From: an uncultured Bacilli bacterium
Lineage (GTDB): Bacteria; Bacillota_I; Bacilli_A; RF39; UBA660
Assembly (NCBI GenBank): GCA_910584255.1
Contig: CAJTXV010000001.1
Location: 17,130-81,129, forward strand
DNA: 64,000 nt
Direction of reading: 5' to 3'
A model generated the notes under the pieces. It saw only the letters and a list, made by a program, of their open reading frames with translations, did not search any database and was not told where the DNA came from. A program made the translations under genes and the position numbers. This document shows positions 5,189 through 33,524 of the stretch, in pieces; the first letter of the stretch is position 1; each line of letters opens with the position of its first letter.

Positions 5189-5213
5189 AAAAGAAAAAGA
5201 TTTAAGAAGTATC

Positions 5214-6104
5214 TTAAATCAGTTCTTCAATCGTATGTGTATTTGCAGAATCTTCTACAGGAATGTTTCTTTTAATCACTTGTCGAACAATATATACTGT
5301 AATCGACAAAATCATAGCTCCTAAGACTAATCCTACACAAAGTGCTAATTTAGGTGCATCCATAGTACTAGCTACTTCGATTTTTTCTTCTTCCTGTTTT
5401 TCTTCAGAAACTCTAATTCCACGAACTAATAATCGATGCGTATTCACAGCATATGGAGTACAGGTAACTAAGGTCACATAATCTTTTCCCTCTTGAATTT
5501 TTAAAGGTTCCGTATTCGAAGGATCAATTACTAAGACCTGATCCACCTGATAAACGAGTACTTGTTCCATCACATATATATAGAACTTATCACCCTTTTT
5601 TATTTGATCTAAATCCGTAAACAGTCTAGCAGAAGGAAGACCTCTATGAGCAGCTAAAATGGAATGCGTTGTATTTCCACCCACTGGAAAGGAACTTCCT
5701 TCTAAATGACCTACACCCTTTTGTAGAACTTTAGCACTTGTACCATGATAGATTGGAATTTTTACATCAATCTTTGGTATTGCAATATATCCCATCGTCC
5801 CTGATTGATCGACATCTAAAATTTCTAAATAATCACTAGAGTTCGCTACTTCACTCGAAGTAAAGACATCTGTTATATTTGCATTTGTTAATTTTTTATT
5901 ATAATTCTCTGCTTCCCTAATCAGTTTTTTAGAATCTTGCTTTGTATCATTTTTTACTTGATTCTGATAATTTACAATTACTTGATCAAATTCTTTTTCT
6001 TTTATTACATTACTAATCACAGGATATAACATAATTGACAGTCCAGAAATAAATAGAATTGTGAATAAAAACAATGGAAGATATTTTTTAATAATATTTT
6101 TCAT
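5214..6104 (-). CDS. Sortase, class C (pilus-polymerising)
   Basis: TLVTCTPY active-site motif, catalytic His region AAHRGL, N-terminal TM plus a C-terminal hydrophobic anchor (LALCVGLVLGAMILSITVYIV) typical of class C sortases. Confidence 0.85.
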   Translation of the reverse strand: MKNIIKKYLPLFLFTILFISGLSIMLYPVISNVIKEKEFDQVIVNYQNQVKNDTKQDSKKLIREAENYNKKLTNANITDVFTSSEVANSSDYLEILDVDQSGTMGYIAIPKIDVKIPIYHGTSAKVLQKGVGHLEGSSFPVGGNTTHSILAAHRGLPSARLFTDLDQIKKGDKFYIYVMEQVLVYQVDQVLVIDPSNTEPLKIQEGKDYVTLVTCTPYAVNTHRLLVRGIRVSEEKQEEEKIEVASTMDAPKLALCVGLVLGAMILSITVYIVRQVIKRNIPVEDSANTHTIEELI

Positions 6105-6112
6105 CTATATAA

Positions 6113-7645: not shown

Positions 7646-8402
7646 TACTTATTTTCTCTTTTTTCTTTTTCTTTACTATATAATAAACAACAATTCCAAT
7701 TCCAATTACACAAACAGCAAATATACTTACATATACTACAATATCATCGTAGGTACTTGGCGAAAAAACTGTATTATGATTTCCATTTGTTGGTGTTGGA
7801 GTAGGCGTTGGTGTTGGTGTTGGTGTTGGTGTTGGTGTCGGTGAAATTGAAGGCGATGGGCTTGGTGTTGGCACAGCCACTGCTTCCGTTTTTACATCGA
7901 CAGGTATATCATAAATGTAATTCCCATCTTCAATTTGTGGTATAGATACAAGGAATGGTATTGCTTGATATTTTTCTCCGTTATCAATTACATCCTCTGT
8001 TAAAACTAAATATATACCTGGTGTCAGATTATTAAACAAAACATGCCCTGTTTTATTCGTATTTTTTTGATAATCATACGCTATTTGATTTTCTACAATA
8101 ACCTCTGATAATTCTTTTGCCAAGGCTCCAGTAGCAGAAGCGGAAAGATCATTTAAATTTTCCGTTCTGTTAGTAAATGAACCTATATAACTATAATTTC
8201 CAATCGTGTCTACATCTGCAATCTTATAAATGGAAACTACTGCATTTTCAATTGATTTTTCATCATATTGATAATTTAAATTCATACTGCTTGCATGTGT
8301 TAAGTCAATAGCAGCAAATACGTTACAAGTATATACAAATAGTAACAAAATTCCAAGAAAGAAACTATTTCTTATTTTTTTTAGCATTTTGTCCACCTCC
8401 AT
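7605..8402 (-). CDS. Pilus-associated surface protein with PT-repeat linker and C-terminal membrane anchor (no LPXTG)
   Basis: Signal peptide, CnaB-like segment (GHVLFNNLTPGIYLVLTED), a (PT)n linker, one C-terminal TM helix and a K/E-rich tail. Sits between the tip-adhesin and backbone-pilin genes with ATGA-type overlap. Confidence 0.5.
   Translation of the reverse strand: MEVDKMLKKIRNSFFLGILLLFVYTCNVFAAIDLTHASSMNLNYQYDEKSIENAVVSIYKIADVDTIGNYSYIGSFTNRTENLNDLSASATGALAKELSEVIVENQIAYDYQKNTNKTGHVLFNNLTPGIYLVLTEDVIDNGEKYQAIPFLVSIPQIEDGNYIYDIPVDVKTEAVAVPTPSPSPSISPTPTPTPTPTPTPTPTPTNGNHNTVFSPSTYDDIVVYVSIFAVCVIGIGIVVYYIVKKKKKEKISNENGKDDSSENEN
7803..7845 (-). repeat. Hexanucleotide microsatellite (ggtgtt)n encoding the PT-repeat linker
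   Basis: Direct read: gttggtgttggtgttggtgttggtgttggtgtcggtg, about 7 tandem 6-nt units inside the 265-aa ORF. Confidence 0.8.
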
Positions 8403-10491
8403 TTTTCTTTTTCATAAAATATGTACATCCGACTGCGGCTAAAACCATTACTATAAGTCCACCAATGATAAATGGAAGAGTTCCAGATCCACCAGTTTCT
8501 GGTAGGATATTAATCTTTTGGCTATATACTACTACACTATATTTTCCATCCGTTCCATCTACTGCATAATCTTTAATGCTAACTACACCAGAGGAATCGA
8601 CTGACATTTCAAGTGGTTTTTCCAATATGATATATCCTACGGGAACCTTTGTTTCTTTCAAATAGTATTTTTGCTCTGGTATTAAGTTTTCAAATGTTAA
8701 TCCAGATTCTATCTCCTGAGTACATGCAGCATCGCTATAAAGAGTAAATTCTGATCCTTCTAACATAACATTTTCTGCATCTTTTCTGATAATATTTAGT
8801 GAAACATTAGAAACTTTTATAGTTGCACTTGCTTTATATTCTCTCGTTGTATCTAATAAGTAATTATTGCTAGCTAGTGCACCAGTTAATTCTACCGTTT
8901 TAACAACATCTGAAGCATGTGCATCACTTGCTGTATATTCTGCTTTCACAACTACACTGCCACCTGCTGGAATTGAATCAATTCTAACATAGCTATCATT
9001 TAATAATGTGTATTCTGTACCGTTAACAAATCTTACGTCCGTATCTTCATGAAGCATTACGTCAGTGATTGGGAATGTAGCCGGATTTGTTACTGTGATA
9101 TCAAATTGAACTTTATCCCCTGCTTTATAATATCCTGTATCGCTTGGATTAGAAATTTCTTTGCTAATTGTCGGTACAAAGGTTCCTGCACTTTGCATCC
9201 ATTCACCATAGATTACAACATCTTCTGCAGGCATTTCAAATGATGAGGTCTTATACCAACCTAAGAATTGGAATCCAGCAGCCACAGGATTTGAAGCAAT
9301 GGAAACTGTTTCTCCTGGTGCATAAGATTGCTCTGCTGGTAGTAAACTAGTAGCATTGTCTGGAAGTACAGTTCCTTTGAACTCATACGTTACTTTATAT
9401 TTTAGTTGTTCAAACTCTCCTACAAATAAAACTGGCTGAGCTACCATTTGGAAGATTCCATCTTCATCCACAGTTACATCTGTCGTTTGCCAACCTAAGA
9501 AACGGTATCCTGAGACAATGTCTCCTGCCTTTAGACTATCTACTTTTACTTCTTCACCAGCACTATATTGTTTTTCTTTTGGAAGTGTATATCCTTCTGG
9601 TTGAAGTGATCCATTTAATGAATAAGTAACAGCATAGGTTGTATCTTTGGTAAATCTACCTTTTAAGGTCACTTCCTTTGCTGGCATTCTGAAACTTGAA
9701 TTATTGATTGTAACTTCATCAGAAGTCCATCCTGTAAAAGTATATCCTGGAACTGAAATATTATTTATAACACCTACCGTATTACCCTCAGCATAAGACA
9801 TTTCCTCTGGTAATGCTGGTGCATTTTCTGGTACATCACCTTCATAAGCATAACTAACTTTATATAATGTCTCTGATTCACGTCCCATAAATACATGGAC
9901 TGTATTAGAACTTGTCGTCGCTGCATTGGATTTTCCAAAGGCAGTATTATAAAAATCCATTCTTGTATTGCTACCTAAGAAAGGTGTCTTTGTAATAATT
10001 CCAACTGTAATCTTACATCCTGCTTGTAAATTCTTAATCTTAAAAGAAACGGTTCTAGTGGCTTCATTATATGTTAATCCAGCAACACCATCTACTACAT
10101 ATCCTCCACAAGCCGTAGTATTGTCACTTCTTTGAACCGCACCAATACTACCATTCTCACTTTGTACAAATCCTACAAAAGTGAGCCCATCTGGGATTTT
10201 ATCCTCGATGTAAATATAATCACTTCGAACATCTGCAACGGCATCATCGCTAGACATTATCAAATTCTTATCTTTCCCATCATACATAACATCTAGATAA
10301 TATGTTAATTCACTATTTTCATTGACACGAACATGATTATCTAAAAGTGAATATGTGGATTTAGATAAAAATATAGTTGCTGCAAGTAAAGTTGCTGAAA
10401 CTACTACAAGTCCTAAGAAAGCACCAAAAAATAGTCTATTCTTTTTTTGTAATTTCTTTTTACTCTGTTTTTCCTTTTGTTTTTGCATCAA
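8365..10491 (-). CDS. Pilus tip adhesin / LPXTG-anchored surface adhesin with three Listeria-Bacteroides (Flg_new-type) repeats
   Basis: Signal peptide. C-terminal LPETGGSG followed by a hydrophobic span and KKKNGG tail. Three repeats of the YxVTYxxNG...GYTFxGW type (e.g. VPGYTFTGWTSD, GYRFLGWQTTD, AAGFQFLGWY). C-terminal CnaB-like domain. First gene of the sortase cluster; the likely start is the ATG at 10486-10488. Confidence 0.75.
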   Translation of the reverse strand: MMQKQKEKQSKKKLQKKNRLFFGAFLGLVVVSATLLAATIFLSKSTYSLLDNHVRVNENSELTYYLDVMYDGKDKNLIMSSDDAVADVRSDYIYIEDKIPDGLTFVGFVQSENGSIGAVQRSDNTTACGGYVVDGVAGLTYNEATRTVSFKIKNLQAGCKITVGIITKTPFLGSNTRMDFYNTAFGKSNAATTSSNTVHVFMGRESETLYKVSYAYEGDVPENAPALPEEMSYAEGNTVGVINNISVPGYTFTGWTSDEVTINNSSFRMPAKEVTLKGRFTKDTTYAVTYSLNGSLQPEGYTLPKEKQYSAGEEVKVDSLKAGDIVSGYRFLGWQTTDVTVDEDGIFQMVAQPVLFVGEFEQLKYKVTYEFKGTVLPDNATSLLPAEQSYAPGETVSIASNPVAAGFQFLGWYKTSSFEMPAEDVVIYGEWMQSAGTFVPTISKEISNPSDTGYYKAGDKVQFDITVTNPATFPITDVMLHEDTDVRFVNGTEYTLLNDSYVRIDSIPAGGSVVVKAEYTASDAHASDVVKTVELTGALASNNYLLDTTREYKASATIKVSNVSLNIIRKDAENVMLEGSEFTLYSDAACTQEIESGLTFENLIPEQKYYLKETKVPVGYIILEKPLEMSVDSSGVVSIKDYAVDGTDGKYSVVVYSQKINILPETGGSGTLPFIIGGLIVMVLAAVGCTYFMKKKNGGGQNAKKNKK

Positions 10492-10641: not shown

Positions 10642-12303
10642 CTAATCATAATTCATAAATTTTTTAAACCGTTGCGTAATCCGTTTTTTTCCAAGAAGTT
10701 TTAAAATTTCGTATAAATCTGGAGTCATAGAACTCGTTGTAGCAGCTACTCGTATCACTGTAGAAACATCAGCAACACTTCCCTTATATGAATCTGGATT
10801 CGTTTTATAGGTTTTCATATCACTACAATATCCCAGTTTCTCTGATAGTTCTTTTATCTTATTAAACCAAACTTCTTTATCATCTTTTTCATCATAGTAT
10901 TTTTCAAGGTATGTTTTTAAGATATGAGTAATTTCTTCTCTATCATCAATTTTTCCAAATTGATACTCTAATTTTCCAGTGAAGTATTCATCAAACATAT
11001 ACCAGACACAATCTTTAATCGTTGAAAATGATGCATAATCTTTTCTTGGTTTCTTTTGTTCTCTTTCAATATTAAAAATAGAAATTGCATATTGTTTATA
11101 ATTTTCTAAAATAGATGCAAACTCTGAATCAAACTCTTTTGCCCAGACTAATAGTTTGTCATAAACTTCACTTGCTTTTAATCTACTGATATAACTTTTA
11201 GAAATATTCATTAATTTTTCTAGATCAAATAGACTTCCAGAAACACTCATTTTCTTAAAATCAAATTTAAAGTCATCGATTCCCAGTGTTTGATTTTGAT
11301 CCCACCAGGCTTCAAAGTTGGTATTGGCAATTGTCATTAGATATAAGTTTACGGCTTCTACTGGAATTCCTTTTTGATGATAGTAACTAACCGCAGCTTC
11401 TGGATCTTTTCTTTTAGAAAGCTTTCGGCGAGTTCCATTTTCATCTACTTTCATAACGGTTCCTAAATGTGCATATTTAGGTGGTTCAAATCCAAATACT
11501 TGAAATAGTTGTAGATGAACAGGGGTAGAAGAAATCCATTCATCTCCACGAATTACATGCGTTGTTCTCATCAAGTGGTCATCTACTAAATGGGCAAAGT
11601 GATAAAGAGGTAATCCATCACCCTTAATAATTACAATGTCTAAATCACTTTCGGGAAATTCAATTTTTCCACGCACCAAGTCATTTATAACAATTTTCTT
11701 ATTAAAATCTCCTGGTGACTTCAAGCGAATAATATAGGGCTCTCCCTTTTTAATTCGTTCAGCTCTTTCTTCATTTGATAAAAAACGACATTCTGCATAA
11801 CTACCATAGTACCCGATTCTTTCCTTATTTAATTCCTGCATTTGTCTAGTTTCCTCGATTTTCTCTGGTGTACAAAAACATGGATAAGCCATTCCTTGTT
11901 CTATTAAATGCTTTGCAAAAGCTTCATAAATTTCTTTTCTTTGACTTTGAATATATGGACCATATTCTCCGATTTGTTCTGTTTCTGATACAACACCTTC
12001 ATCGATTGTGATATCAAAGTTTTTCAAATCATCGATAATTCCTTGAATTCCATTTTCAACGGTTCTAGCTCCATCGGTATCCTCAATTCGTAAAAAGAAA
12101 ACCCCATTGGTATCCTTTGGTACCTTTTTTGCGATAAAAGCAGAACGCAAACTTCCCATATGCACAAATCCTGTAGGACTAGGCGCAAAACGAGATACGA
12201 CAGCTCCCTCAGGTAAATTTCTCTCTGGATATATTTTTTCATAGTCTTCAATTGTTTTTGTAATGTTTGGAAAGATTAAATCTGCTAATTCTTTATTTGT
12301 CAC
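10642..12303 (-). CDS. gltX: Glutamate--tRNA ligase (glutamyl-tRNA synthetase)
   Basis: Class I aaRS N-terminus RFAPSPTGFVHMGSLRSA (HIGH-type motif) and KLSKRK (KMSKS motif). 553 aa, longer than usual because of a C-terminal extension. Adjacent to tRNA-Gln. Confidence 0.75.
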   Translation of the reverse strand: MTNKELADLIFPNITKTIEDYEKIYPERNLPEGAVVSRFAPSPTGFVHMGSLRSAFIAKKVPKDTNGVFFLRIEDTDGARTVENGIQGIIDDLKNFDITIDEGVVSETEQIGEYGPYIQSQRKEIYEAFAKHLIEQGMAYPCFCTPEKIEETRQMQELNKERIGYYGSYAECRFLSNEERAERIKKGEPYIIRLKSPGDFNKKIVINDLVRGKIEFPESDLDIVIIKGDGLPLYHFAHLVDDHLMRTTHVIRGDEWISSTPVHLQLFQVFGFEPPKYAHLGTVMKVDENGTRRKLSKRKDPEAAVSYYHQKGIPVEAVNLYLMTIANTNFEAWWDQNQTLGIDDFKFDFKKMSVSGSLFDLEKLMNISKSYISRLKASEVYDKLLVWAKEFDSEFASILENYKQYAISIFNIEREQKKPRKDYASFSTIKDCVWYMFDEYFTGKLEYQFGKIDDREEITHILKTYLEKYYDEKDDKEVWFNKIKELSEKLGYCSDMKTYKTNPDSYKGSVADVSTVIRVAATTSSMTPDLYEILKLLGKKRITQRFKKFMNYD

Positions 12304-12583: not shown

Positions 12584-15500
12584 TTATTCATTCAGTCCTC
12601 TTTTTCCTAAGATATAGTTTTTAATTCGAATCACATCGGGTGCCGTCACTAATCCATCTTGATTGATATCAACGATTTTTGTGACTAAGAAGTCGACTTG
12701 TTTCTTTCCTAAGACATAGTTCTTTGCTTGAATGTTATCAGCTGCTGTTACTAAGCCATCTCCATTTAAGTCCCCTCGAACGGTGATTACTAGTTCATCG
12801 TAAACAAATCCATCAATTTCTAGTTTGATTACCATGTAACTTCCTATGAATTTATCTTCTTCCGTAATCTCTACTCCATCACTTCCATAGATATGAAGTG
12901 TTTCTCTATCATTTAAGAAGTTTCCAATAAAATCTGTCTTCTTTGTTTTCGGATCCATTCCTATTACATAGTCTTTCGTTTCATTTCTGTCAATCGTATA
13001 AATATCACTTCGAATCGTATATTCTAGACTATCCCTTGTAATATTGATTTTATATTCTTGAGTTGTATATCCATCTTTCGCAATCACTTCTACGATATAA
13101 GTACTAATCGACCTATCTACTAAATTCACGTCTCCCATAAGATTGACTGTTGCGTTACTGTCTTTTGGTACCGCCGTAATTTCACTTTCTAGTAGTTTTC
13201 TCTTTGATTTTGAGACTTGGATATTATATTCAAAAGTATCTGGTTCAAAAGTAAATGGATATCCTAAAATTTCTAATCTCTCTAGTCTTACTTCACTTTC
13301 TGATTCTTTCTTAACATGAATTACATAGGTCTTTATACTTCCATCTTCAGCTGTTACTACGATATTTCTTGTGCTTTCTCCATCTGTTACTCCTAGTGTT
13401 TCATGTCCCACTACGGTCGCCTTACTACTTTCTGTTTTTACTTTAAATCCTAAACTATTTACATCTCTGCCTAACTCTAATGTATATTCTAAAGTTTCTT
13501 TATCGAAACTTGGATTTAAAGTTCCACCACTTGGAATTAAACTACTTAAATAATTATTACTTGATATTGGATTTTCAACTGTGATGGTGTATGTTTTTAC
13601 TACTCCTAATTCACTTGTTACTGTTACATTGATTGTATTGGTTCCTGCTTTTAATAGGATTATTCCATCTCCTACTACTGTCGCATTCTTATCATCTGAA
13701 TCTGCTTCTACTTTTGCATATTCTTCACTGGTTGTTAGATTTACTTGATATGTTAATGTTTCTTTATTAAATCCTATATCGTAGAGCCTTTCATCTAATC
13801 CAAAATAAAGTTTTAATTCTTTTAAATTATTGTTCTCTGATTGTTTTCTATTTACATTTACATAATAAGTTCTAGTAACTCCTATCATACTTCTAACTTT
13901 GATTGGAATTCTATTGATTCCTTTCTTTAAAGCATATGGATTTCCATTTCCTATTTTAGATGTAATTGTTGCGCTACTATCTTCTGCTGTTGCCTGGACT
14001 ATAATCTCTTCTATCTCGCCTTCTACTTCTACATTATACTCTAATGTAGTTGGATTAAATTTTGGATCTAATGTTCCATGATCTACACTTAAACTACTTA
14101 AGAAGTTATTTGATGACATTTGACGATTTACATATAGGATGTATTCTTCTTCTAGGGAATTATCACTTGATGTTACTTTGATATGTACTTCATTCATTCC
14201 AATCTCAAAGTTTTCATTTCCTGTGACTACAACTGTTGCATTGCTTTCTTCTTTTTCATAACTTAGTTCTAGTTCAGTTACCTCATAATCTACATCAACA
14301 TAATATTCAAATATTTCTTTGTTGAAGGTTTGATCTAAATCGTATCCTTTTATTTTTAAGTCTGTTAAGTAAGCACTTTTTACTTCAGATCGATTGACTG
14401 TAATTGTATAAATGTTGGTAAGTCCTGATTCACTAGTTACTGTAATATTGATAGTATTTTCTCCTATATTTAAATCATAATTTTTTAGTCCCAATACTGT
14501 AGCATTACTATCTTCTAGTGTTCCTGTAAATTCTATATTGTCATCTTCTGCCCCTACTTCAATTGTATAAGAATTTATCTCTTTATCAAAGGTTTGATTC
14601 CAAACACCAACATTACTATAAAGACTCGCTAAATAATTGTTATCACTTGCCTCTTTGGTGATTAGAATCTTATAATTTTTGTCTGTTCCTGCTTCAGAAG
14701 TTACCACGATGTCAAAATAGTTTTCTCCTGCATGGATTGGTTTTAATCCAGTACCAACTATTGTTGCATTACTATCTTCTGTTTTTGCCTTAATTATTAC
14801 ACTATTGATATTATTTGGAACCTCTACTGTATAGAACGTAATTCCTTTATGAAAGGTTGGAACTAACGTATAGCCTTCAACATCTAAAGAAGATAAATTA
14901 TTGTTCTTACTTCCTTCTTTCGTAATAGTTAAGGTATAAGTCTTTTTCGTTGTTCCATCTGGCGCTGTTACTTCAATTGTTACTGTATTTTCTCCTGTTT
15001 GAAAGTCTTGATTTCCACTTACTACATAGGTTGCTTCAGCCTCTGTTGGTTGTATCGTTGTAAAATCTAAGTAATCTTTACTTGTCTTTAAAGTATAGCC
15101 TAAAGTATTACTATTAAATGTTGGACTTAGCATATGACTCTTGACAACTAGACTAGAAAGTGTTGCATCACTTGATTTCTTCCTTGTTACTACGATTTGA
15201 TAGTCTCTTTGTACTCCATCGGTTCCAACCACAAAAACACTAATTCCATTCTTTCCTACATTTAAATGATACTTTCCTGTTCCTAATACTTGAACTTCAT
15301 CACTTAAGCTTTCTGCTGTTACTGTGATATCTGTAATATTATTTTCTACTTCTAATGTATAGTTCAATGTATCTGGATTAAAGATTGGACTAATTTCTCC
15401 TCGGTTGGTTTCTAAAGTTAATAACCCAAGATTTTCTGTTGTTGATTCTTGTCTTGTAATCGAAAGGGTATAGGTTTTTTTATTTCCTTTTGGAGCTGTC

Positions 15501-18500
15501 ACTATTACTTGTATTTCTCTTGGAACTCCTACTTCTAATCCTGTCGTATCTCCAACAATATCCACAGTTGCATCTTTATCTTCTGGGACCCCCTCAATAT
15601 GTACTTCCGTTTTATTGTTTGGTATCTTTACATCATAGAATATCGTTGTTTCTTGGAAATGTGGTGAAAGTCCCCCTTCTTCTACATAAAGAAAACTTAA
15701 ATCATCATTCGTTGACTGATCCCTGATGACTCTCACTACATAGTCCTTATAATTTCCTGCTTCACCTGTAACTCTCATGGTTATATCATTATTTCCTATA
15801 GTTAATGGATAATACCCATTTCCAGTTACTCTCGTACTACTACTAGTTGGTATTCCTTCTAGAATTATATCTGATATTTCATACTGTACATTAATTAAGT
15901 AATCATATCCAGTAACACTTGGATTTTCTGACTTCGTTACAGTACTTCCCCTGTTATTCTTAATCTCTTTGAATGTGATATCTTCATCTGTTTTCGCTTT
16001 ATTTACTGTAATTATATAGTCATTTGTTAATCCAGATTCACTTGTTACTGTAATCGTGATTTTGTTCTCTCCTTCTACTAATGAATAGATTCCGTTTCCT
16101 GAAACAGTTGCCATAGCATCTTCTTTGATTCCTTCCATATTTATTGTACTTACTTGTGCTCCTACTTCCATAGAATACTCATTTTTCGCCTTATCAAATT
16201 CAGGGGTTAGATTTCCTTCGCTTACCTTTAAACTCCTTAAGTAATTATTATCTGAGACTTCTTTTCTTACCTTAATAGTATATACTTTATATTCTTTGTT
16301 CTCTGCAACCACTGTAACCGTAATTTCTCCTACACTTTGATTTAAATTATTATTTCCTCGTATTATATATGTCGCATTCGTATCTTCTAATTCTACTTTT
16401 ACTTTTACACTCGTTACTTCTCTTGGTATCTCAATATTATATTCTAATGTGTCTTTGTCGAAGGTTGGATCTAACGGATATTCCTCTACTTCTAATTTCA
16501 ATATGTTAGTATTTGAAGATTTCTCTCGGTTAATTACTATCTCATATACATTGGTATCTCCATCTGGGGCAGTCACTGTTACATTTATGATATTTACACC
16601 TGATTTTAGTTTATGGACTCCATCATTCGTAACACTCGCTGAGGTATCCTCTAAGGTCACTCGAACATCTACTTCACTTACTTCATTTCCTACATTGATT
16701 TGATAAGTGTTTATAAATGAATTAAAGGTTGGGTCTAAGGTAAGCACACTTCCATTATGAAGTACTTCTAAATTACTTAAAAGTGTACTTACATTTACTT
16801 CATGATGGGCATGAATAATATACGTTCTGATATCACCATTTTGCGCAGTAACCGTAATAATACAATCATTCATTCCTGCTTTTAAGTTTGTATTTCCTTT
16901 GATACTTACTTTTGCCTTTGGATCCTTTGGTACTGCATTTACCGTATATTCACTTACCGTTTTTGGTATCGTTACATAATATTCATACGTATATGGTTTA
17001 AAATCTAACGCTACAACTGGGTCAGTGATTTCTAATACCTTTAATAGATTATTTCCTGTTGAATCTCTATCAATATTATAAGTATAAACAATATTTTGAC
17101 TATCATCTTCACTGATGACTTCAATTTCAAAACTATTGATTCCTGGTTCTAACGCTACACTACTTAAATCACTTACTACTTCTTTACTTCCATCACTTTT
17201 TAACTTTCGATATATTACTTCTTGATATTCTGATCTTTGCGTTACTTCAAATCCTATACTTAATGTTTTAAATGGTAATTTTATATTATATTCTGTTGTG
17301 GTTTCATTAAATTGATACTGACAGTATGATGCATTACTATCACACAAATATGCATAAGAATTCTCTATCTTAATATCGATTGGATGCGGGTTACTTGATC
17401 CTTTACGATTAATAATTAGTTTATAAACTCTAACACTATCATCTGTTGCGGTTACTTCGATTTCATGAATCGTTTGTCCTGGTGGAAGTTTAATTGTTTC
17501 ATCTCCACCTACTACTTTAGCGTCTTTATCCTTGGCAATTGCCTTAATCTTTAAAGAAGTATGGGTTTCATCTAAGTTTAAGATATATTCTTCTACCGTT
17601 GGGTCATAATCGATTTCAACATCCCCATCATCTAAAGTAATACTCTCCAAGAAATTATTATTACTTAAAACCGACAATAATTTTATTCTGGCATATCCAT
17701 CTCCAGAATGTCCGACACCATTCTCATAGTATCCTCCTTCTGGATCTGGCATTGGCGTAAGATTTCCTATAGTTGTCGTCCAATTGTATCCACGACCATC
17801 AATCATCCTAGTTTCAGTAAATACTTTCCCAGAATAATGATTTGCCTGTCCAGAAGCAACTCCATTTTCAGTGATGGCATTACATCCCGCATGTCCTGAG
17901 ATGAAGGATGATCCACCACCAGCACCTTGACCGGCACCACCACCACCAGTGGAACCTCCAGCGCCACCACCATAGTAGCCACCGCCACCACCACCGGCAC
18001 CAATGCCATCGGAAAATGAGTCGTTATTACCACCGATACCAAAAGTTCCAGGATTTACAGTACCATAAGCACCACTAAAAATGTTAGTTCCAGCAGATCC
18101 ACCAACAGTTTGGGTTCCACCTTTTCCATTTTGATTATAATACCTATGCCCAGAGTAATACCCTCCTGCATAACCATTCAATCCACCAGCGTAACTTCCT
18201 TCACCAGCAGTATTATAATTGCTAACGGAAACACCACCACCTGCTCCTGCAACCATGATTCTGGATTTTAGAGAATTTAAATCATTCCAATCTCCCTTCA
18301 CTAAACGAACGTCTGTGGCTCCTCCTCCAGAAGCACCAAAAACACCATAACCATAAGCCTTTCTAGTATTTCCACCATATCCACCACCATTAAAGGTAGA
18401 TTCTCTACTTTGTTCCTTTCCTTGTTCACCAATATAGAAATAAAGTTTTTCACCTAAATTTAATTTAATTTTTCCTTTAGTATATCCGCCTTTCCCTAAA

Positions 18501-20950
18501 TGACTAGATTCCTTATCAGAAGTTCCTCCAGAAGCACCCCATAATTCAATTTCATAAAATCCTGAATATGGAACAATGTACTCAATAGGGCCTTTTGTTA
18601 ATCCTATGCCTTGCCCAACATCTCCGATATCAGATTTTTTCACAACATGAATTGTATAAACGGTATCATCTACTCCATCTAAATGGGAAGTAATTGTTAT
18701 TATACTCTCCTCTGCATCAATGTATTTATTTCCAGTAATTGTGACTACAGTTCCTTCAAAGTATGTTTCTGTTTCAAAATCAAGACTGAATATACTATCT
18801 AAAATCTCTATATTATACTCTAACTTTTCTGAAGTAAATCCAAATGGGATAGAAGTCTTAACTGATTTTAATAATGATGTTCTTTTTCTTGTAAAGTTAA
18901 AAGTATATAATTGATTTTCACTATTATCTTCACTCTTTGATAATAGCGTTAAAGTCTTTCCATTTTCATTAAATTCAAATTGTCCTTCTCCTGAAACTGT
19001 TTGTCCAGTAATATGTTTGATTGCTTCTAAATGAATATAGTTTACATTGGTAGGAAGTTCAATATTATATTCATAAGTATTTGGGCTGAATCCTTCATAA
19101 GGAATTCCATTGATTTTAACACCATCTAAGAATTTATAATTACTAATTTCACGACTTACATGAATAACATAAGTAACAACTTTTCCATCATAGTTTAGCA
19201 CGGTAATTGTATAAATATTTTCACCTTCTGGGACCGTAAAGGTTCCTGTTCCTGTGACATAAGACCATTCCTCTTCTGAAACAGCATCAATCGTAATTGT
19301 TTCATCTCTATGAGAGAGTTTTAAATTATATTCAAAAATATCAGAATCAAATGTTGGTGTATAAGAATTATTTGTTCCACTTACTGTTAAAGAACTAAGT
19401 CCAGTTGCTTCATGATCATAACGATAGGTAATTCTAGCATACCCATCCCCATCATGTCCTGCACCTTCATCATAAGTTCCACCTTCTGGTTTTGGCATTG
19501 AGGTTAAACTCCCTAATGCAGTCGTCCAATTGTATCCTTTTCCATCAATCATTACAGTATCAGTAAATATTTTTCCACTATAATGATAAGAATCTTCTAT
19601 TTGTGAATAAGTTGTAACTTTTGGTGTTCCATCTTCATTAATGGCAATCGCACCAGCATGCCCTGAGATGAAGGATGATCCACCTCCAGCACCTTGACCG
19701 AAACCACCGCCACCAGTGGCACCTCCAGCGCCGCCACCGTAGTAGCCACCGCCACCGCCTCCAGCTCCGCCTCCAGAAGAATGTGATTCATTGTTACCAC
19801 CTATTCCGAAAGTTCCAGGATTTACAGTACCATAAGCGCCACTATAAATGTTAGTTCCAGCAGATCCACCAGCAGTTTGGGTTCCTCCTTTTCCATTTTG
19901 ATTTGCATAACCATGTCCAGAGTAATATCCACCATCATAACCATTCAAACCTCCAGCATAGCTTCCACCACCAGCACTATTATAAAGACTATAACCAATT
20001 CCACCACCAGCACCAGCAACCATGATTCTAGACTTCAGGGATTCTAGATTATCCCAGTCGCCACCAACTAAACGGACATCTGTAGCTCCTCCTCCAGAAG
20101 CACCAGCAGGGTAACCACCTGCTCCACCACCATTGAATTTGCTTTCTCTATCTGCTGGTTTTCCTTGTTCTCCAACATAAAAATAAAGTCTTTCCCCCGC
20201 TGTTAAATAAATTTTTCCTTTTGTATAGCTTCCCTTTCCGTGATGAGTGTATTGGGGGGCATCCTCATAGACTCCTCCTGAAGCTCCCCATAATTCTATA
20301 TCATAATATCCTGTTTCAGGTATTATATATTCATTTGCTTGTGCTTCCGTAAAATCTCTAACTAATGTTTTTCTATTAATCGTAAAAGTGTAAATTCTTT
20401 CATACCCAGTCACTGAACTAGTTACTTTAATCCTAATTTCATTTTTTCCAGGATGTAAATTTAAAATATCAAGAACTTCATAGATAGTATCAGCAGAATT
20501 AGTTACTATAGGTGTTACTTTATCTATTTCATATTTTACTTCTAAATCATAGGTATCTACTTTTGGGTCAAACGAAAAGTCAACTTCAGCAAAAGATACA
20601 TCATCTAAACAAGGAAGATTTCTTTTGATATTTAGCGTATATAAAGATAAATTTCCATAGTGATCAATTACAGAAATATAATGTGCTGTATTCACATCTA
20701 ATTCTTGATTTCCTGTACCAAAAATATAGTAATTATCTAAAGAGGTTGTATAAGTAATTTCAGAATTTACATGTTCTGTATCTAAATATAAATCATACTC
20801 ATATTTATTTTCTTCTAAGGAATTCATCATCCCATTTTTTATAGTGATTGAATCTAAGGCATGAGAAAGAGCTTCTACCTTATTTGTAGAAAAGAAACAG
20901 ATAGCAATTAAAAATATGGATATTAAAGTAATTTTTCCTAATCTCTTCAT
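12584..20950 (-). CDS. Giant secreted surface protein (2788 aa): signal peptide, two tandem glycine-rich domains (ALK/LTK-type Gly_rich-like), about 17 cadherin-like beta-sandwich repeats, C-terminal type I dockerin
   Basis: Single uninterrupted ORF. Signal peptide MKRLGKITLISIFLIAICFF...VEA. Two modules of about 300 aa with YDIELWGASGG, GGGATDVRLV, RIMVAGAGGG and long poly-Gly runs (GGGGGGYYGGGAGG). Repeated ~85-aa units LSSLxVxxGxLxPxFxxxxxxYxxxV...ATV...GxNxIxIxVTAxDGxxKxYTIxIxR. The C-terminus DLNGDGLVTAADNIQAKNYVLG...DINQDGLVTAPDVIRIKNYILG matches the duplicated dockerin calcium-binding segment. Confidence 0.85.
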   Translation of the reverse strand: MKRLGKITLISIFLIAICFFSTNKVEALSHALDSITIKNGMMNSLEENKYEYDLYLDTEHVNSEITYTTSLDNYYIFGTGNQELDVNTAHYISVIDHYGNLSLYTLNIKRNLPCLDDVSFAEVDFSFDPKVDTYDLEVKYEIDKVTPIVTNSADTIYEVLDILNLHPGKNEIRIKVTSSVTGYERIYTFTINRKTLVRDFTEAQANEYIIPETGYYDIELWGASGGVYEDAPQYTHHGKGSYTKGKIYLTAGERLYFYVGEQGKPADRESKFNGGGAGGYPAGASGGGATDVRLVGGDWDNLESLKSRIMVAGAGGGIGYSLYNSAGGGSYAGGLNGYDGGYYSGHGYANQNGKGGTQTAGGSAGTNIYSGAYGTVNPGTFGIGGNNESHSSGGGAGGGGGGYYGGGAGGATGGGGFGQGAGGGSSFISGHAGAIAINEDGTPKVTTYSQIEDSYHYSGKIFTDTVMIDGKGYNWTTALGSLTSMPKPEGGTYDEGAGHDGDGYARITYRYDHEATGLSSLTVSGTNNSYTPTFDSDIFEYNLKLSHRDETITIDAVSEEEWSYVTGTGTFTVPEGENIYTITVLNYDGKVVTYVIHVSREISNYKFLDGVKINGIPYEGFSPNTYEYNIELPTNVNYIHLEAIKHITGQTVSGEGQFEFNENGKTLTLLSKSEDNSENQLYTFNFTRKRTSLLKSVKTSIPFGFTSEKLEYNIEILDSIFSLDFETETYFEGTVVTITGNKYIDAEESIITITSHLDGVDDTVYTIHVVKKSDIGDVGQGIGLTKGPIEYIVPYSGFYEIELWGASGGTSDKESSHLGKGGYTKGKIKLNLGEKLYFYIGEQGKEQSRESTFNGGGYGGNTRKAYGYGVFGASGGGATDVRLVKGDWNDLNSLKSRIMVAGAGGGVSVSNYNTAGEGSYAGGLNGYAGGYYSGHRYYNQNGKGGTQTVGGSAGTNIFSGAYGTVNPGTFGIGGNNDSFSDGIGAGGGGGGYYGGGAGGSTGGGGAGQGAGGGSSFISGHAGCNAITENGVASGQANHYSGKVFTETRMIDGRGYNWTTTIGNLTPMPDPEGGYYENGVGHSGDGYARIKLLSVLSNNNFLESITLDDGDVEIDYDPTVEEYILNLDETHTSLKIKAIAKDKDAKVVGGDETIKLPPGQTIHEIEVTATDDSVRVYKLIINRKGSSNPHPIDIKIENSYAYLCDSNASYCQYQFNETTTEYNIKLPFKTLSIGFEVTQRSEYQEVIYRKLKSDGSKEVVSDLSSVALEPGINSFEIEVISEDDSQNIVYTYNIDRDSTGNNLLKVLEITDPVVALDFKPYTYEYYVTIPKTVSEYTVNAVPKDPKAKVSIKGNTNLKAGMNDCIITVTAQNGDIRTYIIHAHHEVNVSTLLSNLEVLHNGSVLTLDPTFNSFINTYQINVGNEVSEVDVRVTLEDTSASVTNDGVHKLKSGVNIINVTVTAPDGDTNVYEIVINREKSSNTNILKLEVEEYPLDPTFDKDTLEYNIEIPREVTSVKVKVELEDTNATYIIRGNNNLNQSVGEITVTVVAENKEYKVYTIKVRKEVSDNNYLRSLKVSEGNLTPEFDKAKNEYSMEVGAQVSTINMEGIKEDAMATVSGNGIYSLVEGENKITITVTSESGLTNDYIITVNKAKTDEDITFKEIKNNRGSTVTKSENPSVTGYDYLINVQYEISDIILEGIPTSSSTRVTGNGYYPLTIGNNDITMRVTGEAGNYKDYVVRVIRDQSTNDDLSFLYVEEGGLSPHFQETTIFYDVKIPNNKTEVHIEGVPEDKDATVDIVGDTTGLEVGVPREIQVIVTAPKGNKKTYTLSITRQESTTENLGLLTLETNRGEISPIFNPDTLNYTLEVENNITDITVTAESLSDEVQVLGTGKYHLNVGKNGISVFVVGTDGVQRDYQIVVTRKKSSDATLSSLVVKSHMLSPTFNSNTLGYTLKTSKDYLDFTTIQPTEAEATYVVSGNQDFQTGENTVTIEVTAPDGTTKKTYTLTITKEGSKNNNLSSLDVEGYTLVPTFHKGITFYTVEVPNNINSVIIKAKTEDSNATIVGTGLKPIHAGENYFDIVVTSEAGTDKNYKILITKEASDNNYLASLYSNVGVWNQTFDKEINSYTIEVGAEDDNIEFTGTLEDSNATVLGLKNYDLNIGENTINITVTSESGLTNIYTITVNRSEVKSAYLTDLKIKGYDLDQTFNKEIFEYYVDVDYEVTELELSYEKEESNATVVVTGNENFEIGMNEVHIKVTSSDNSLEEEYILYVNRQMSSNNFLSSLSVDHGTLDPKFNPTTLEYNVEVEGEIEEIIVQATAEDSSATITSKIGNGNPYALKKGINRIPIKVRSMIGVTRTYYVNVNRKQSENNNLKELKLYFGLDERLYDIGFNKETLTYQVNLTTSEEYAKVEADSDDKNATVVGDGIILLKAGTNTINVTVTSELGVVKTYTITVENPISSNNYLSSLIPSGGTLNPSFDKETLEYTLELGRDVNSLGFKVKTESSKATVVGHETLGVTDGESTRNIVVTAEDGSIKTYVIHVKKESESEVRLERLEILGYPFTFEPDTFEYNIQVSKSKRKLLESEITAVPKDSNATVNLMGDVNLVDRSISTYIVEVIAKDGYTTQEYKINITRDSLEYTIRSDIYTIDRNETKDYVIGMDPKTKKTDFIGNFLNDRETLHIYGSDGVEITEEDKFIGSYMVIKLEIDGFVYDELVITVRGDLNGDGLVTAADNIQAKNYVLGKKQVDFLVTKIVDINQDGLVTAPDVIRIKNYILGKRGLNE
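17651..18583 (-). repeat. Internal gene duplication, copy 2 of the glycine-rich domain module within the giant surface-protein gene
   Basis: Protein segment about 790-1100 is nearly identical to segment about 200-520 (e.g. SLKSRIMVAGAGGG, GGSAGTNI(Y/F)SGAYGTVNPGTFGIGGNN). The spurious plus/minus ORFs at 17803-18042 and 19597-19800 translate to nearly the same peptide. Confidence 0.7.
19391..20353 (-). repeat. Internal gene duplication, copy 1 of the glycine-rich domain module
   Basis: See copy 2. Long near-identical nucleotide stretches (e.g. ccaccaccggcaccaatgcc / ccgccgcctccagctccgcc regions encoding GGGAGGG runs). Confidence 0.7.
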
Positions 20951-21007
20951 ACAACCACTTCCAAATATTTCAATCCTTTACAGAGGATGACTACCCTAAT
21001 TATATAT

Positions 21008-21037
21008 ATTATACCTTTTTCTTCATACATTTGACAA
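21008..21037 (-). promoter_or_regulatory. Putative sigma-70 promoter for the giant surface-protein gene
   Basis: Minus-strand TTGTCA-N18-TATAAT, about 55 nt upstream of the ATG at 20950. Confidence 0.35.
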
Positions 21038-21152: not shown

Positions 21153-22202
21153 TTATTGACATGTATATCCTTGTGCTGTTAAAGCTTCTCGAATTTCTTT
21201 TACAGAACTATCATATTTGTACTCTGTCTCTATAGTTTCTTCTGTACCATCACTGTTGATTAATTTTTGTGTTTTAAATTCTTTTAAATCAAAATTGTTA
21301 CTTTCTTCAATTTCTAATTCGGCAATAGAACAACTGAACTCATACCCTGTTAAACTTGCAGCCGCAATGGTCTTACTTTCACAAGCTGTCTTTTTTACTG
21401 TATAAGTATCATCGATTGCTAGATACTGGATATTGGTAGAAATCTTCACACTTTTTAACTTGTCTTTCGCATGAGTAAAATTCCTAGTCATGATTGTAGT
21501 TGTATTGGCAACAGTAACAGGTGCAGAAACACATGTTACTGTTTCATATTGTTGTTCTTCTTGTTCTTTCTTTTCTTGTTCCTTTCTTGCTTCTTCCTCT
21601 TCTTTCTTCTGTTTTTCTTCTTCTTCTCTTAATTTACGATCAAATTCTTCAATTTTTTTCTTTCCTTCTTGCTCCTTAAAGTAATCATTAATGTTTGGCA
21701 AAAAGAATACAAACGCAAATAGAAAAATAAAGAAGATAATCAATGGAATTTTACTTTTTGTTTTTCTTTTTTCTTCCATTGGTGAATATCCTGTTGTTTC
21801 CTTTTTAGGCTCTTCTTCTACCTTCTTTGTACCAAAGGAAACTTTACTTGTTTCTTTTAATATCGGATTGACCCCTGCGACATTCGAAACATTAGAGGAT
21901 GACTGCGTAGTAGTTGCACTTGTTTGTAGTGCGACTGGCTCTCCCATTGGCGTTGTAGGTGTAGGAGATGTACTAGAAGTAGCCGTTTCCGGTGTTACTT
22001 TTTCCTTAACCTCATTTACTGGTTGTAATACTTCTACCTTTTCCTCTACTTTTGGAACTACTGTAGATTGTTCTATATTTTCAGAAACTATTGGGGTTGT
22101 TTCCTTTATTCTATTTTCTACTGCAGTTTCCTTAGTTTGTGTTTGATTTTCATTTTCATTTGGATTTTCATTCATATTTGTCATCCCCTTATTATTAATC
22201 AT
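21153..22202 (-). CDS. Single-pass membrane protein with N-terminal N/E/T/P-rich low-complexity region, charged coiled-coil stretch and Cys-containing C-terminal ~140-aa domain
   Basis: One TM helix (IPLIIFFIFLFAFVFFLP), an EEEKQKKEEEEARKEQEKKEQEE stretch and four Cys in the C-terminal domain. The true start is probably the third Met (MNENPNEN), which has an AAGGGG RBS. Confidence 0.5.
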   Translation of the reverse strand: MINNKGMTNMNENPNENENQTQTKETAVENRIKETTPIVSENIEQSTVVPKVEEKVEVLQPVNEVKEKVTPETATSSTSPTPTTPMGEPVALQTSATTTQSSSNVSNVAGVNPILKETSKVSFGTKKVEEEPKKETTGYSPMEEKRKTKSKIPLIIFFIFLFAFVFFLPNINDYFKEQEGKKKIEEFDRKLREEEEKQKKEEEEARKEQEKKEQEEQQYETVTCVSAPVTVANTTTIMTRNFTHAKDKLKSVKISTNIQYLAIDDTYTVKKTACESKTIAAASLTGYEFSCSIAELEIEESNNFDLKEFKTQKLINSDGTEETIETEYKYDSSVKEIREALTAQGYTCQ

Positions 22203-22380: not shown

Positions 22381-24195
22381 TTAAGCATTTTTTCTAGCAT
22401 CAAATTTCTTTCTTTGATCCGTATTTAAAATTCTCTTACGAATACGAATAGATTGTGGTGTTACTTCTACCAATTCATCACTATTGATATAATCAAGTGC
22501 ATATTCTAATGTAATTGGGCGAGGTCTTTTTAAAACCACTGTTTTATCAGCACTCGCAGCACGCATATTAGTTAATTGCTTTCCTTTAACTACATTAACT
22601 GCTAAATCATTTTCACGATTACATTCTCCAATAATCATTCCTTCATATACATCGGTTGCAGGTTCAACAAACATAACTCCACGATCTTCTAATTGACCTA
22701 AAGCATAGGCTGTACTTTTCCCAGTGTCATTAGATACTAATACACCCAGTTTTCTTTCCCCTACTGTGATATTTTCATAAGGACGGTATTCTTTAAATGT
22801 ATGGTTGATAATTCCATATCCTTTGGTCATCGTCATAAAGTCAGTCATAAAACCAATTAAACCACGAGAAGGCACTGTATAATTTAGGCGCACTTGATTT
22901 TCAAAGTTAGTCATGCTCTCCATAATCGCACCACGAGTACCCAATTGTTCAATAACTGATCCTACTGATTCTTCAGGAACTTCGATTTGTAAGTCTTCGT
23001 AGGGTTCCATTTTAATTCCATTTTCTTCTTTAATGATAACTTTTGGTTTAGAAACTTCAAGTTCAAATCCTTCACGGCGCATATTTTCAATTAAAATCGA
23101 TAAATGAAGTTCTCCACGACCTGAAACTAGCCAACTTTCTCCATCACTTGGTTCTACTCTTAAACTAACATCCCTTTGAAGTTCTTTATTTAAACGGTCT
23201 TCAATCTGGCGTGCTGTTAAGAATTTTCCTTCTTTTCCAACAAATGGAGATGAATTTGTACCAAATGTCATTTGAAGTGTTGGTTCGTCAATATGTAGAA
23301 TTGGCAATGGATAATTTTCTCCCTGTGCACAAACCGTCTCTCCAACGGAAATATCACTAAGTCCTGCAATCGCTATAATATCTCCCGCTTCTGCTTCTTC
23401 AATTTCAATTCTTTTATATCCTAGGTAACCAAATAATTTTTGAATACGGAAAGATTTTGTTGTTCCATCTAAACGGATACAATTTACTGTTTGTCCTACT
23501 TTAATTTTACCATTTTGTACACGACCAATTCCAATTCTTCCAACAAATTCATTATAGTCCAAAAGTGCAGGTTGGAATTGTAGATGTTCTTCACTGGAAC
23601 CGCTTGGTGCAGGGATTTCATCAATAATTAAATCTAATAATTCACTAAATCCTGGTGTTTGCGTTTCTGGATTTGAATCTAGACTTGAAGTACCATTTAA
23701 AGCTGAAGCATATACGACTTTAAAATCTAATTGATCATCATCTGCTCCAAGTTCGATAAATAAATCTAGCACTTCATCTACTACTTGATTTACTCTAGCA
23801 CTTGGCTTATCTACTTTATTAATGACAACGACTGGCTTTATTCCTACTGCTAATGCCTTCTTTAATACGAAACGAGTTTGTGGCATAGTTCCCTCATAAG
23901 CATCCACTACTAAAAGGACACCATCTACCATGTTCATGATTCGTTCTACTTCTCCACCAAAATCCGCATGTCCTGGCGTATCCATAATATTAATCCTATA
24001 ATCTTTGTAATCAATTGCTGTTGTCTTCGCTAAAATTGTAATTCCACGTTCCTTTTCTAATTGATTAGAATCCATGGATAAGTCACTTACATTTTCATTT
24101 TCTCTAAATGTACCACTTGTCTTTAAAATCTCATCTACTAGTGTCGTTTTCCCATGATCGACATGGGCAATAATTGCAATATTTCTTTTTTTCAT
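22381..24195 (-). CDS. typA: Translational GTPase TypA/BipA
   Basis: [21 protein letters not shown] (G1), [14 protein letters not shown] (G3), NKVDK (G4). 604 aa. Confidence 0.9.
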
Positions 24196-27496: not shown

Positions 27497-27511
27497 AACT
27501 AACCCTTCTTC

Positions 27512-28288: not shown

Positions 28289-28296
28289 ATATCCTC

Positions 28297-33506: not shown

Positions 33507-33524
33507 AATAGTTCACACTCCTTT

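What the first reader, a model, noticed from the sequence alone, without database searches (positions are those of the whole stretch)
12584..20950. 2788-aa dockerin-terminated protein with two tandem glycine-rich domains resembling the ALK/LTK-type Gly-rich (polyglycine-II helix) domain
Each ~300-aa module contains YDIELWGASGG, GGGATDVRLV(G/K)GDW, SLKSRIMVAGAGGG and multiple G6-G8 runs (GGGGGGYYGGGAGG). From memory this matches the Pfam Gly_rich family shared by bacterial proteins and the ALK/LTK receptor ectodomains, where it forms a lattice of polyglycine-II helices. The modules are followed by about 17 cadherin-like beta-sandwich repeats (LSSLxVxxGxLxPxF...YTIxIxR) and a canonical type I dockerin (DLNGDGLVTAADN...DINQDGLVTAPDV). 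A dockerin implies a cohesin-bearing partner and a cell-surface complex in an organism that otherwise looks non-cellulolytic. No carbohydrate-active enzyme domain is recognisable.
Basis: partly seen in the sequence, partly recalled or inferred. Interest (0 to 1): 0.75.

Follow-up and report, generated by a model that had tools for sequence, protein, structure and literature searches.

The report
Giant dockerin-tailed protein with ALK-like glycine domains
An uncultured gut bacterium encodes a 2788-residue secreted fibre protein carrying two glycine-rich domains of the same fold as the ligand-binding domain of the human ALK receptor and of some phage tail-fibre tips, plus a dockerin tail; it is most likely a long surface adhesin, one of several hundred similar, unstudied proteins already in the databases.

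The parts
12584..20950 (-). Whole ORF, 2788 aa plus stop codon
   Evidence: Identical to P0121 in the protein collection. A near-identical copy lies in the same gene order in GCA_949949055.1.
21008..21037 (-). Promoter-like site TTGTCA-18-TATAAT (11 of 12 matches), about 57 nt upstream of the start codon
   Evidence: This is a consensus match only.
20955..20962 (-). Ribosome-binding-site-like GGAAGTGG, 4 nt before the ATG
   Evidence: Read directly from the sequence.
20870..20950 (-). Sec-type signal peptide, aa 1-27 (MKRLGKITLISIFLIAICFFSTNKVEA / LS)
   Evidence: Read from the translation: basic N-terminus, hydrophobic core, VEA cleavage motif. No predictor was run.
20378..20860 (-). Cadherin-like beta-sandwich repeats 1-2 (aa 31-191)
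   Evidence: Self-built HMM, E 1e-16 and 1e-19.
19409..20371 (-). GRD1 (aa 194-514): TNF-like beta-sandwich plus glycine-rich lattice, ALK_LTK_GRD
18635..19405 (-). Cadherin-like repeats 3-5 (aa 516-772), the spacer between the two GRDs
17666..18622 (-). GRD2 (aa 777-1095), 71% identical to GRD1
13031..17662 (-). Stalk of 17 cadherin-like repeats (repeats 6-22, aa 1097-2640), period about 88 aa. Mean pairwise identity over all 22 repeats is 26%.
12779..13030 (-). Beta-grasp (ubiquitin-like) 'X' domain, aa 2641-2724, modelled as one rigid unit with the dockerin
12587..12778 (-). Type I dockerin, aa 2725-2788. It has two Ca-loop plus helix repeats, DLNGDGLVTAAD and DINQDGLVTAPD.

Best explanation
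The gene encodes a secreted, very long fibrillar surface protein of an uncultured low-GC gut bacterium (class Bacilli; the closest MAGs are labelled Bacilli, Tenericutes or Mollicutes). After Sec export, the C-terminal beta-grasp plus dockerin unit holds the protein at the producer's surface. It most likely does so by calcium-dependent binding to a cohesin-type receptor that has not yet been identified. Seventeen cadherin-like beta-sandwich repeats form a stalk of roughly 60-80 nm that projects the N-terminal part away from the cell. That part carries two GRD heads, separated by three repeats and capped by two more. Each head is a TNF-like beta-sandwich fused to a lattice of extended glycine-rich strands. 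The glycine core is conserved and the connecting loops vary. The heads are proposed to bind an external ligand (host, microbial or dietary), as the same fold does in ALK/LTK (cytokine binding) and in phage tail-fibre tips (host-receptor binding). Shown here: the ORF, the domain identities, the folds, the family and its distribution. Inferred: surface location, anchoring through the dockerin, the adhesive role of the GRD, and the ligand, which is unknown.
Against: No cohesin was detected in the window, even at E up to 10 for the unannotated ORFs, or within 10 kb of homologues P0127 and P0122. In many family members the second Ca loop of the dockerin is degenerate, which may mean the module does not need a cohesin. 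No ligand, binding assay or localisation data exist for any bacterial GRD protein that I could find. The bacterial GRD subfamily has several invariant polar residues: D98, R100, R115, Q165, S233, S236 and H238 in GRD1 numbering. D98 and R100 are replaced in human ALK in the profile alignment. These residues could mark a specific binding or even catalytic site, and I could not place them on the model. Conserved cores with variable loops occur in most domains, so that pattern is weak evidence. The organism has sortases and LPXTG pilins, so it is unexplained why this protein would use a different anchor.
Confidence: 0.55

Rival explanations
1. The architecture is as above, but the dockerin-like tail does not bind a cohesin. 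It acts as a calcium-stabilised structural cap or as a different kind of wall or membrane attachment or export element. The protein is then held or released by another mechanism.
For: No cohesin was found in the window or next to two homologues. The second Ca loop is degenerate in many family members while the module as a whole is conserved. The module is modelled as one rigid beta-grasp plus three-helix unit. Dockerin-like modules are known to be widespread outside cellulosomes, often without a recognisable cohesin (Peer et al. 2009, FEMS Microbiol Lett 291:1; seen only in a reference list, otherwise from my own knowledge).
Against: In this protein both Ca loops are canonical (D1, N3, D5, D12). 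The fold superposes on cohesin-binding type I dockerins at 1.2-1.7 A with 27-40% identity. Only 64 kb of the genome was searched.
Confidence: 0.22
2. The protein is cargo or scaffold in a cellulosome- or amylosome-like multi-protein complex. The GRDs would act as carbohydrate-binding or catalytic modules on dietary or host glycans, rather than as a general adhesin head.
Confidence: 0.12
3. The gene is cargo of a mobile element. It would be either a mating-pair adhesin of the adjacent conjugative element or a domesticated prophage tail-fibre gene.
For: Type IV secretion and conjugation genes lie 4-15 kb upstream: VirD4-like 24668-27496, VirB4/TraG-like 30894-32681, TrbL-like, and a cell-wall hydrolase. 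GRDs occur in phage proteins. In relative L001 (86% nt identity over the 11.8 kb that covers the conjugation genes and BipA) the giant gene is absent from the syntenic position.
Against: Housekeeping genes lie between it and the conjugation genes and on its other side (BipA; a Glu/Gln-tRNA synthetase). L001 keeps the conjugation genes but not the giant gene, so the two are not linked. Homologues P0127 and P0122 sit in different contexts with no conjugation or phage genes. There are no phage structural genes in the window. The protein lacks a trimerising N-terminal fibre domain and has a Sec signal peptide.
Confidence: 0.05

Closest known systems
ALK / LTK / SCD-2 extracellular TNF-like plus glycine-rich ('TG') ligand-binding domain (PDB 7NX3, 7LS0, 7LRZ, 7LIR; Pfam PF12810)
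   Different: There is no EGF-like module, transmembrane helix or kinase. The GRD is present twice and is embedded in a cadherin-like repeat fibre. The bacterial module has an extra conserved C-terminal stretch of about 80 aa (HYSG..F..T.MIDG.GY.W...MP.P.G...G.GYARI) that lies outside the ALK-aligned region. It also has invariant D98 and R100, which ALK replaces. A single-sequence search does not find ALK; only profiles and structure do. The ligand is unknown.
Phage tail-fibre tips with TNF-like plus glycine-rich domains: cyanophage Pam3 gp24, mycobacteriophage Bxb1 gp33 and gp29 (and, more distantly, Salmonella phage S16 gp38)
   Different: The phage fibres are trimeric and assembled on virions, in Pam3 with a dedicated chaperone. 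Here the domain sits in a Sec-exported cellular protein with no trimerisation helix. Its structure is closer to ALK than to any solved phage protein.
Giant 'cadherin-like beta sandwich domain-containing proteins' of uncultured gut Bacilli MAGs
   Same: True family membership. The architecture is the same: 1-5 GRDs, 20-39 cadherin-like repeats and the same beta-grasp plus dockerin-like C-terminus. The closest relatives (P0122, P0123) are 70% identical and others fall to about 30%.
   Different: This member has 2 GRDs and 22 repeats and is among the shorter ones. It keeps both dockerin Ca loops canonical, whereas many members have a degenerate second loop. None has been studied experimentally, as far as I could find.
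X-dockerin cell-surface attachment modules of cellulosome systems (e.g. R. flavefaciens CttA XDoc-ScaE, PDB 4IU2; C. thermocellum type I dockerins 2CCL, 4DH2, 3UL4)
   Different: The preceding domain is a beta-grasp, not the Ig-like X module. No cohesin partner has been identified, and there is no cellulosomal or CAZyme context.
Gram-positive fibrillar adhesins (sortase-anchored repeat-stalk proteins)
   Same: Signal peptide, distal binding modules, a long stalk of diverged beta-sandwich repeats, and a C-terminal attachment module.
   Different: There is no LPXTG motif, although the genome has sortases and LPXTG pilins nearby. The putative binding module (GRD) is not an established adhesive domain.

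Membership tests
Pfam PF12810 ALK_LTK_GRD (glycine-rich domain family) | Significant match to the family HMM above the curated cut-off | tested here: met
   268.9 bits against a cut-off of 24.5, in two stretches. A profile of 61 bacterial homologues retrieves ALK, SCD-2 and LTK from the PDB at E 1.9e-8, 8e-7 and 2.4e-6.
Pfam PF12810 ALK_LTK_GRD (glycine-rich domain family) | Fold: TNF-like beta-sandwich intertwined with the glycine-rich subdomain | tested here: met
Pfam PF12810 ALK_LTK_GRD (glycine-rich domain family) | Glycine-rich segments form a lattice of polyglycine-II / PPII helices | tested here: inconclusive
Indirect support: residues 133-179 and 198-253 of GRD1 are almost entirely without helix or strand at pLDDT 94-99. 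They also align with the published ALK PPII helices (PMC13243192).
ALK/LTK receptor tyrosine kinases | GRD followed by an EGF-like module, a transmembrane helix and a cytoplasmic kinase; binds ALKAL cytokines | tested here: not met
   There are no EGF, TM or kinase hits; the remainder is cadherin-like repeats and a dockerin. ALKAL binding is not testable here. The protein is a homologue of the domain, not a member of the receptor family.
Type I dockerin (Pfam PF00404) | HMM match; duplicated segment of about 22 residues with Ca-binding loop D-x-N-x-D-G-x(5)-D followed by a helix | tested here: met
   37 bits against a cut-off of 22.9. DLNGDGLVTAAD and DINQDGLVTAPD are both canonical.
Type I dockerin (Pfam PF00404) | Three-helix dockerin fold | tested here: met
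Cohesin-dockerin system | A cohesin-domain partner encoded in the same genome | not testable with these tools
   No cohesin was found in the window ORFs of at least 150 aa that were scanned, or within 10 kb of two homologues.
Cellulosome / amylosome component | Carbohydrate-active catalytic or CBM module attached to the dockerin; scaffoldin gene cluster | tested here: not met
   The protein has no CAZyme or CBM family. There is no scaffoldin and no other dockerin in 64 kb.
Cadherin-like beta sandwich (Pfam PF12733) repeat proteins | Multiple HMM matches | tested here: met
   444 bits in 17 stretches. A self-built HMM finds 22 repeats.
Phage tail fibre / receptor-binding protein | Virion-associated trimeric fibre encoded in a phage structural module | tested here: not met
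   The protein has a Sec signal peptide and a chromosomal housekeeping context, and the window has no phage structural genes. Only the GRD fold is shared.
Sortase-anchored fibrillar adhesin | C-terminal LPXTG sorting signal | tested here: not met
   The C-terminus is ...NYILGKRGLNE, with no LPXTG and no hydrophobic tail.

The most novel reading that the evidence does not exclude
Gut commensal Bacilli display on their surface a close structural homologue of the metazoan ALK/LTK cytokine-binding domain. The heads might therefore engage host ALKAL-type ligands or other host proteins, which would be molecular mimicry of a receptor ectodomain. Alternatively, the ALK/LTK ligand-binding domain may descend from a bacterial or phage fibre-tip adhesin acquired by an early metazoan. 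The roughly 18,000 prokaryotic and metagenomic GRD clusters would then be the ancestral reservoir and a tractable system for studying how a polyglycine-II lattice recognises ligands.
Probability: 0.07. Interest if true: 0.85.

Novelty: new member of a known kind. Interest (0 to 1): 0.42.

Why it matters
The ALK/LTK glycine-rich domain is usually treated as a rare fold, and the PPII-bundle papers I could read list no cellular bacterial example. This protein shows, with a high-confidence model, that cellular bacteria carry the complete TNF-like plus glycine-lattice fold. The bacterial version is closer to ALK than any solved phage protein is. The domain is abundant (about 18,000 clusters) and is mounted on three kinds of fibre: repeat stalks, type IV pilins and phage tails. 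That points to a general role as a fibre-tip recognition head. It also offers bacterial proteins as experimental models for the fold. For gut microbiology, it marks a family of giant surface proteins in poorly known, uncultured Bacilli that probably shape attachment. It also adds a clear case of a canonical dockerin outside any fibre-degrading context. None of this changes a known principle, and the domains were already annotated automatically.

Tried and rejected
- A single-sequence phmmer search of GRD1 against the PDB found only a low-complexity hit, cyclin-T1/Tat. Homology to ALK needs a profile or a structure.
- NCBIfam has no model for the protein.
- A homologue search with the C-terminal beta-grasp plus dockerin module returned only 6 fragments of orthologues. 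It did not reveal other cargo sharing this anchor.
- The look-up of encoding contigs had no record for P0121 itself. The cluster mate P0247 worked.
- The adjacent 349-aa membrane protein (21153-22202) was considered as a possible dockerin receptor. It has no Pfam or PDB similarity, and a diverged copy (78% nt identity) sits after BipA in L001, where no giant gene follows it.
- Conjugative-element cargo and prophage origin were rejected on context.
- Assembly artefact or collapsed repeat was rejected. There are no DNA tandem repeats, repeats average 26% identity, and an independent assembly carries a gene of identical length.
- Literature searches for bacterial members of PF12810 or for characterised bacterial GRD proteins found nothing relevant.
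- The De Munck et al. 2021 ALK paper and Peer et al. 2009 could not be read.

Full report
OBSERVATION. Window 12584-20950 on the - strand is one uninterrupted ORF of 2788 codons with an ATG start. It has a promoter-like TTGTCA-18-TATAAT site (11 of 12 matches) at 21037-21008. A GGAAGTGG ribosome-binding-like site lies 4 nt before the ATG. The N-terminus reads as a Sec signal peptide (MKRLGKITLISIFLIAICFFSTNKVEA/LS; read, no predictor run).

Glycine content reaches 21-37% in aa 201-500 and 801-1100, against 2-10% elsewhere. Pfam gives three families and nothing else:
- ALK_LTK_GRD: E 7.3e-80, 268.9 bits, 2 stretches.
- Cadherin-like: E 4.8e-136, 17 stretches.
- Dockerin_1: 37 bits against a cut-off of 22.9.
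NCBIfam has no model for the protein.

DOMAIN MAP. An HMM iterated on the protein's own repeats finds 22 cadherin-like repeats. The order is:
- signal peptide, aa 1-27
- repeats 1-2, aa 31-191
- GRD1, aa 194-514
- repeats 3-5, aa 516-772
- GRD2, aa 777-1095
- repeats 6-22, aa 1097-2640
- an 85-aa domain, aa 2641-2724
- dockerin, aa 2725-2788
The two GRDs are 71% identical. They are not adjacent. The repeats average 26% pairwise identity, and there is no DNA-level tandem repeat. The array is therefore old and not an assembly artefact.

IS THE GRD REALLY THE ALK/LTK DOMAIN? A single-sequence search against PDB sequences finds nothing meaningful. A profile of 61 bacterial GRDs (alignment A1) finds nine distinct sequences and no other family at significance:
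- human ALK ectodomain fragments, E 1.9e-8 to 1e-7
- C. elegans SCD-2, E 8e-7
- LTK, E 2.4e-6
The alignment matches non-glycine positions as well as glycine runs. Examples are Y.I.(W/Y)GA.GG, LYI.VGQ.G, GGGAT, (I/V)AAGGGG, GGFG.GG, GGGGGY.GG and G.SFIS.

I could not read the model coordinates, so the polyglycine-II geometry is inferred rather than measured. Two observations support it. First, residues 133-179 and 198-253 of GRD1 are almost entirely without helix or strand assignment at pLDDT 94-99. Second, I used the ALK PPII helix coordinates tabulated in PMC13243192, assuming 7mzw chain residue 1 is ALK 673 (the chain is 353 residues and the entry covers '673-1025'). By my manual mapping onto the alignment, 12 of the 14 ALK PPII helices align with glycine-rich segments of the bacterial profile. 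Compared with ALK, the bacterial module has an extra conserved C-terminal region of about 80 residues. It also has several invariant polar residues; two of them, D98 and R100, are replaced in ALK.

The Pam3 paper describes gp24 as a TNF-like plus glycine-rich domain responsible for host-receptor recognition. It reports a conserved glycine stem and a variable distal tip, and notes the resemblance to C. elegans ALK (PMC9608196). PMC13243192 groups S16 gp38, ALK, Pam3 and Bxb1 gp33/gp29 as glycine-rich PPII bundles.

At sequence level, GRD1 hits three PHROG families of unknown function at E 1e-24 to 3e-32. It also hits 'glycine rich protein' genes of 30 C. difficile phage records. In phiSemix9P1 that gene lies between the tail-fibre/XkdX genes and the holin.

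- 3ul4_B, 40% identity

THE FAMILY. The protein is already in public collections (P0121, 100% identical, on a 145-kb NCBI contig). A cluster mate of the same length lies in the same gene order in GCA_949949055.1.

A full-length search gives 424 proteins at E <= 1e-10. All 120 listed are 2151-4879 aa and carry PF12733 plus PF12810. About half have a Pfam-detected dockerin. Some carry Big_2, Peptidase_M23 or other modules. Where named, they are 'cadherin-like beta sandwich domain-containing protein [Bacilli bacterium]'.

My own HMM counts show 1-5 GRDs and 20-39 repeats per protein. Nearly all end in the same beta-grasp plus dockerin-like module...VRGDL.GDG.VN..D...NYIL.KI..LN. The second loop is degenerate in many.

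The GRD alone is much more widespread:
- At least 1196 hits were found in the word-indexed search, mostly 300-550-aa single-GRD proteins.
- Twelve of the 120 listed start with an unmistakable type IV pilin signal, KGFTLIELLAV.
- An exhaustive profile search of 1.84 billion cluster representatives gives 18,105 proteins at E <= 1e-3 and 3,493 at E <= 1e-30. Some have up to 15 GRD stretches and 7,775 aa.
In A1 the glycine motifs and beta-strands are conserved. Substitutions and indels concentrate in the connecting loops.

ORGANISM AND CONTEXT. GC content is 27-37%, and every large credible ORF but one (a LysR-type regulator at 40939-41973) lies on the - strand. The BipA neighbour is 98% identical to that of 'Bacillales bacterium UBA7057'. 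It is 71-87% identical to those of many gut MAGs labelled Bacilli, Tenericutes, Mollicutes or Erysipelotrichaceae, from human, rabbit, ruminant and chicken samples.

The flanking genes are as follows:
- a Glu/Gln-tRNA synthetase, 10642-12303
- an unannotated 349-aa membrane protein, 21153-22202
- BipA, 22381-24195
- further upstream, a conjugation gene set
- further downstream, a sortase-pilus cluster, which shows the organism has a cell wall
In the relative L001 (86% nt identity over 11.8 kb), synteny ends after the 349-aa gene. The giant gene is absent there. Homologues P0127 and P0122 lie in unrelated housekeeping neighbourhoods. The gene therefore has no conserved operon partner and shows turnover between related species.

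COHESIN. No cohesin was found in any of the 37 window ORFs of at least 150 aa that were scanned, even at E <= 10 for the unannotated ones. None appears among the precomputed Pfam hits within 10 kb of two homologues. Only one dockerin motif occurs in the window.

HOW IT MOST LIKELY WORKS (inference). The layout is signal peptide, distal binding modules, a long stalk of diverged beta-sandwich repeats, and a conserved C-terminal attachment module. That is the layout of a fibrillar surface adhesin. With about 4 nm per Ig-like repeat (general knowledge), the 17-repeat stalk would span roughly 60-80 nm.

The GRD is proposed as the binding head for three reasons:
- Its two experimentally characterised structural relatives are both recognition domains: ALK/LTK for cytokines and phage fibre tips for host receptors.
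- It is mounted at the business end of three unrelated fibre types.
- Its variable parts are loops around a conserved glycine core.
The dockerin unit is proposed as the anchor because it is the one invariant terminal feature of a family in which everything else varies in number. I give this model a confidence of 0.55.

The main rivals are:
- The dockerin-like unit has a non-cohesin role (0.22).
- The protein is a glycan-directed component of a cellulosome-like complex (0.12).
- The gene is mobile-element cargo (0.05).

Noticed in passing
window 14969-15445 (aa 1836-1994 of the giant protein), compared with L086:10001-18367: The window gene and its counterpart in GCA_949949055.1 differ at 46 of 8367 nt. 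All 46 differences fall within one patch of about 480 bp in repeats 13-15 (19 synonymous and 16 non-synonymous codons). The other 7.9 kb are identical. This looks like a recombination or gene-conversion tract (between alleles or between repeats), or a local assembly chimera.
   Followed up: partly
window 3617-10491 (- strand): A sortase-dependent pilus cluster. It has three sortase genes (3617-4312, 4382-5188, 5214-6104), an LPXTG backbone pilin (6113-7645), a 265-aa unannotated gene (7605-8402), and a 708-aa Flg_new/SHIRT/SpaA-domain protein (8365-10491), probably a tip or accessory pilin. It shows that this 'Tenericutes-like' bacterium has a peptidoglycan wall.
   Followed up: partly
window 24668-36329 (- strand): A conjugation / type IV secretion gene set: VirD4-type coupling protein, a 258-aa lipoprotein-like gene, an 853-aa SpoIID + M15 cell-wall hydrolase, a VirB4/TraG-type ATPase and a TrbL-like membrane protein. 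The stretch up to window 34201 is conserved at 86% nt identity in 'Bacillales bacterium UBA7057' (L001). This is probably an integrated conjugative element or its remnant.
   Followed up: partly
window 21153-22202 (- strand): A 349-aa protein with no Pfam, NCBIfam or PDB similarity. It has a low-complexity T/S/P/E-rich N-terminal half, one transmembrane helix, a K/E-rich coiled-coil-like stretch and a C-terminal domain of about 130 aa with four cysteines. It sits next to BipA, and L001 has a diverged copy there (78% nt identity). I considered it as a possible dockerin receptor and found no support for that.
   Followed up: partly
window 50439-54062 (- strand): A second large surface protein (1207 aa) that combines VWA, DUF285 (a 'Mycoplasma' repeat) and Listeria-Bacteroides (Flg_new) repeats. 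DUF285 genes also sit next to a short GRD gene in a related MAG (L083).
   Followed up: no
L082 18393-25067: Directly downstream of homologue P0122 (70% identical to the window protein) lies another giant gene of at least 2225 aa that runs off the contig. Its domains were not on record. Giant-protein genes may be paired in some relatives.
   Followed up: no
L084/L085 8001-10650: Two short single-GRD paralogues (490 and 384 aa) are encoded in tandem among housekeeping genes (gyrB, ruvX) in a related metagenome bacterium. Other short GRD proteins carry a genuine type IV pilin N-terminus (KGFTLIELLAV), which suggests GRD-tipped pili.
   Followed up: partly
window 39580-40479 (- strand): A 299-aa protein matching DUF2099, described in Pfam as 'conserved in archaea' (E 8e-43). 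It sits next to a divergently transcribed LysR regulator (40939-41973, the only large + strand gene in the window).
   Followed up: no
whole window: GC skew on the + strand is negative in every 2-kb bin (cumulative -5.9), and all large genes but one are on the - strand. The window lies within one replichore with strong gene-strand bias, as is typical of Bacillota.
   Followed up: no
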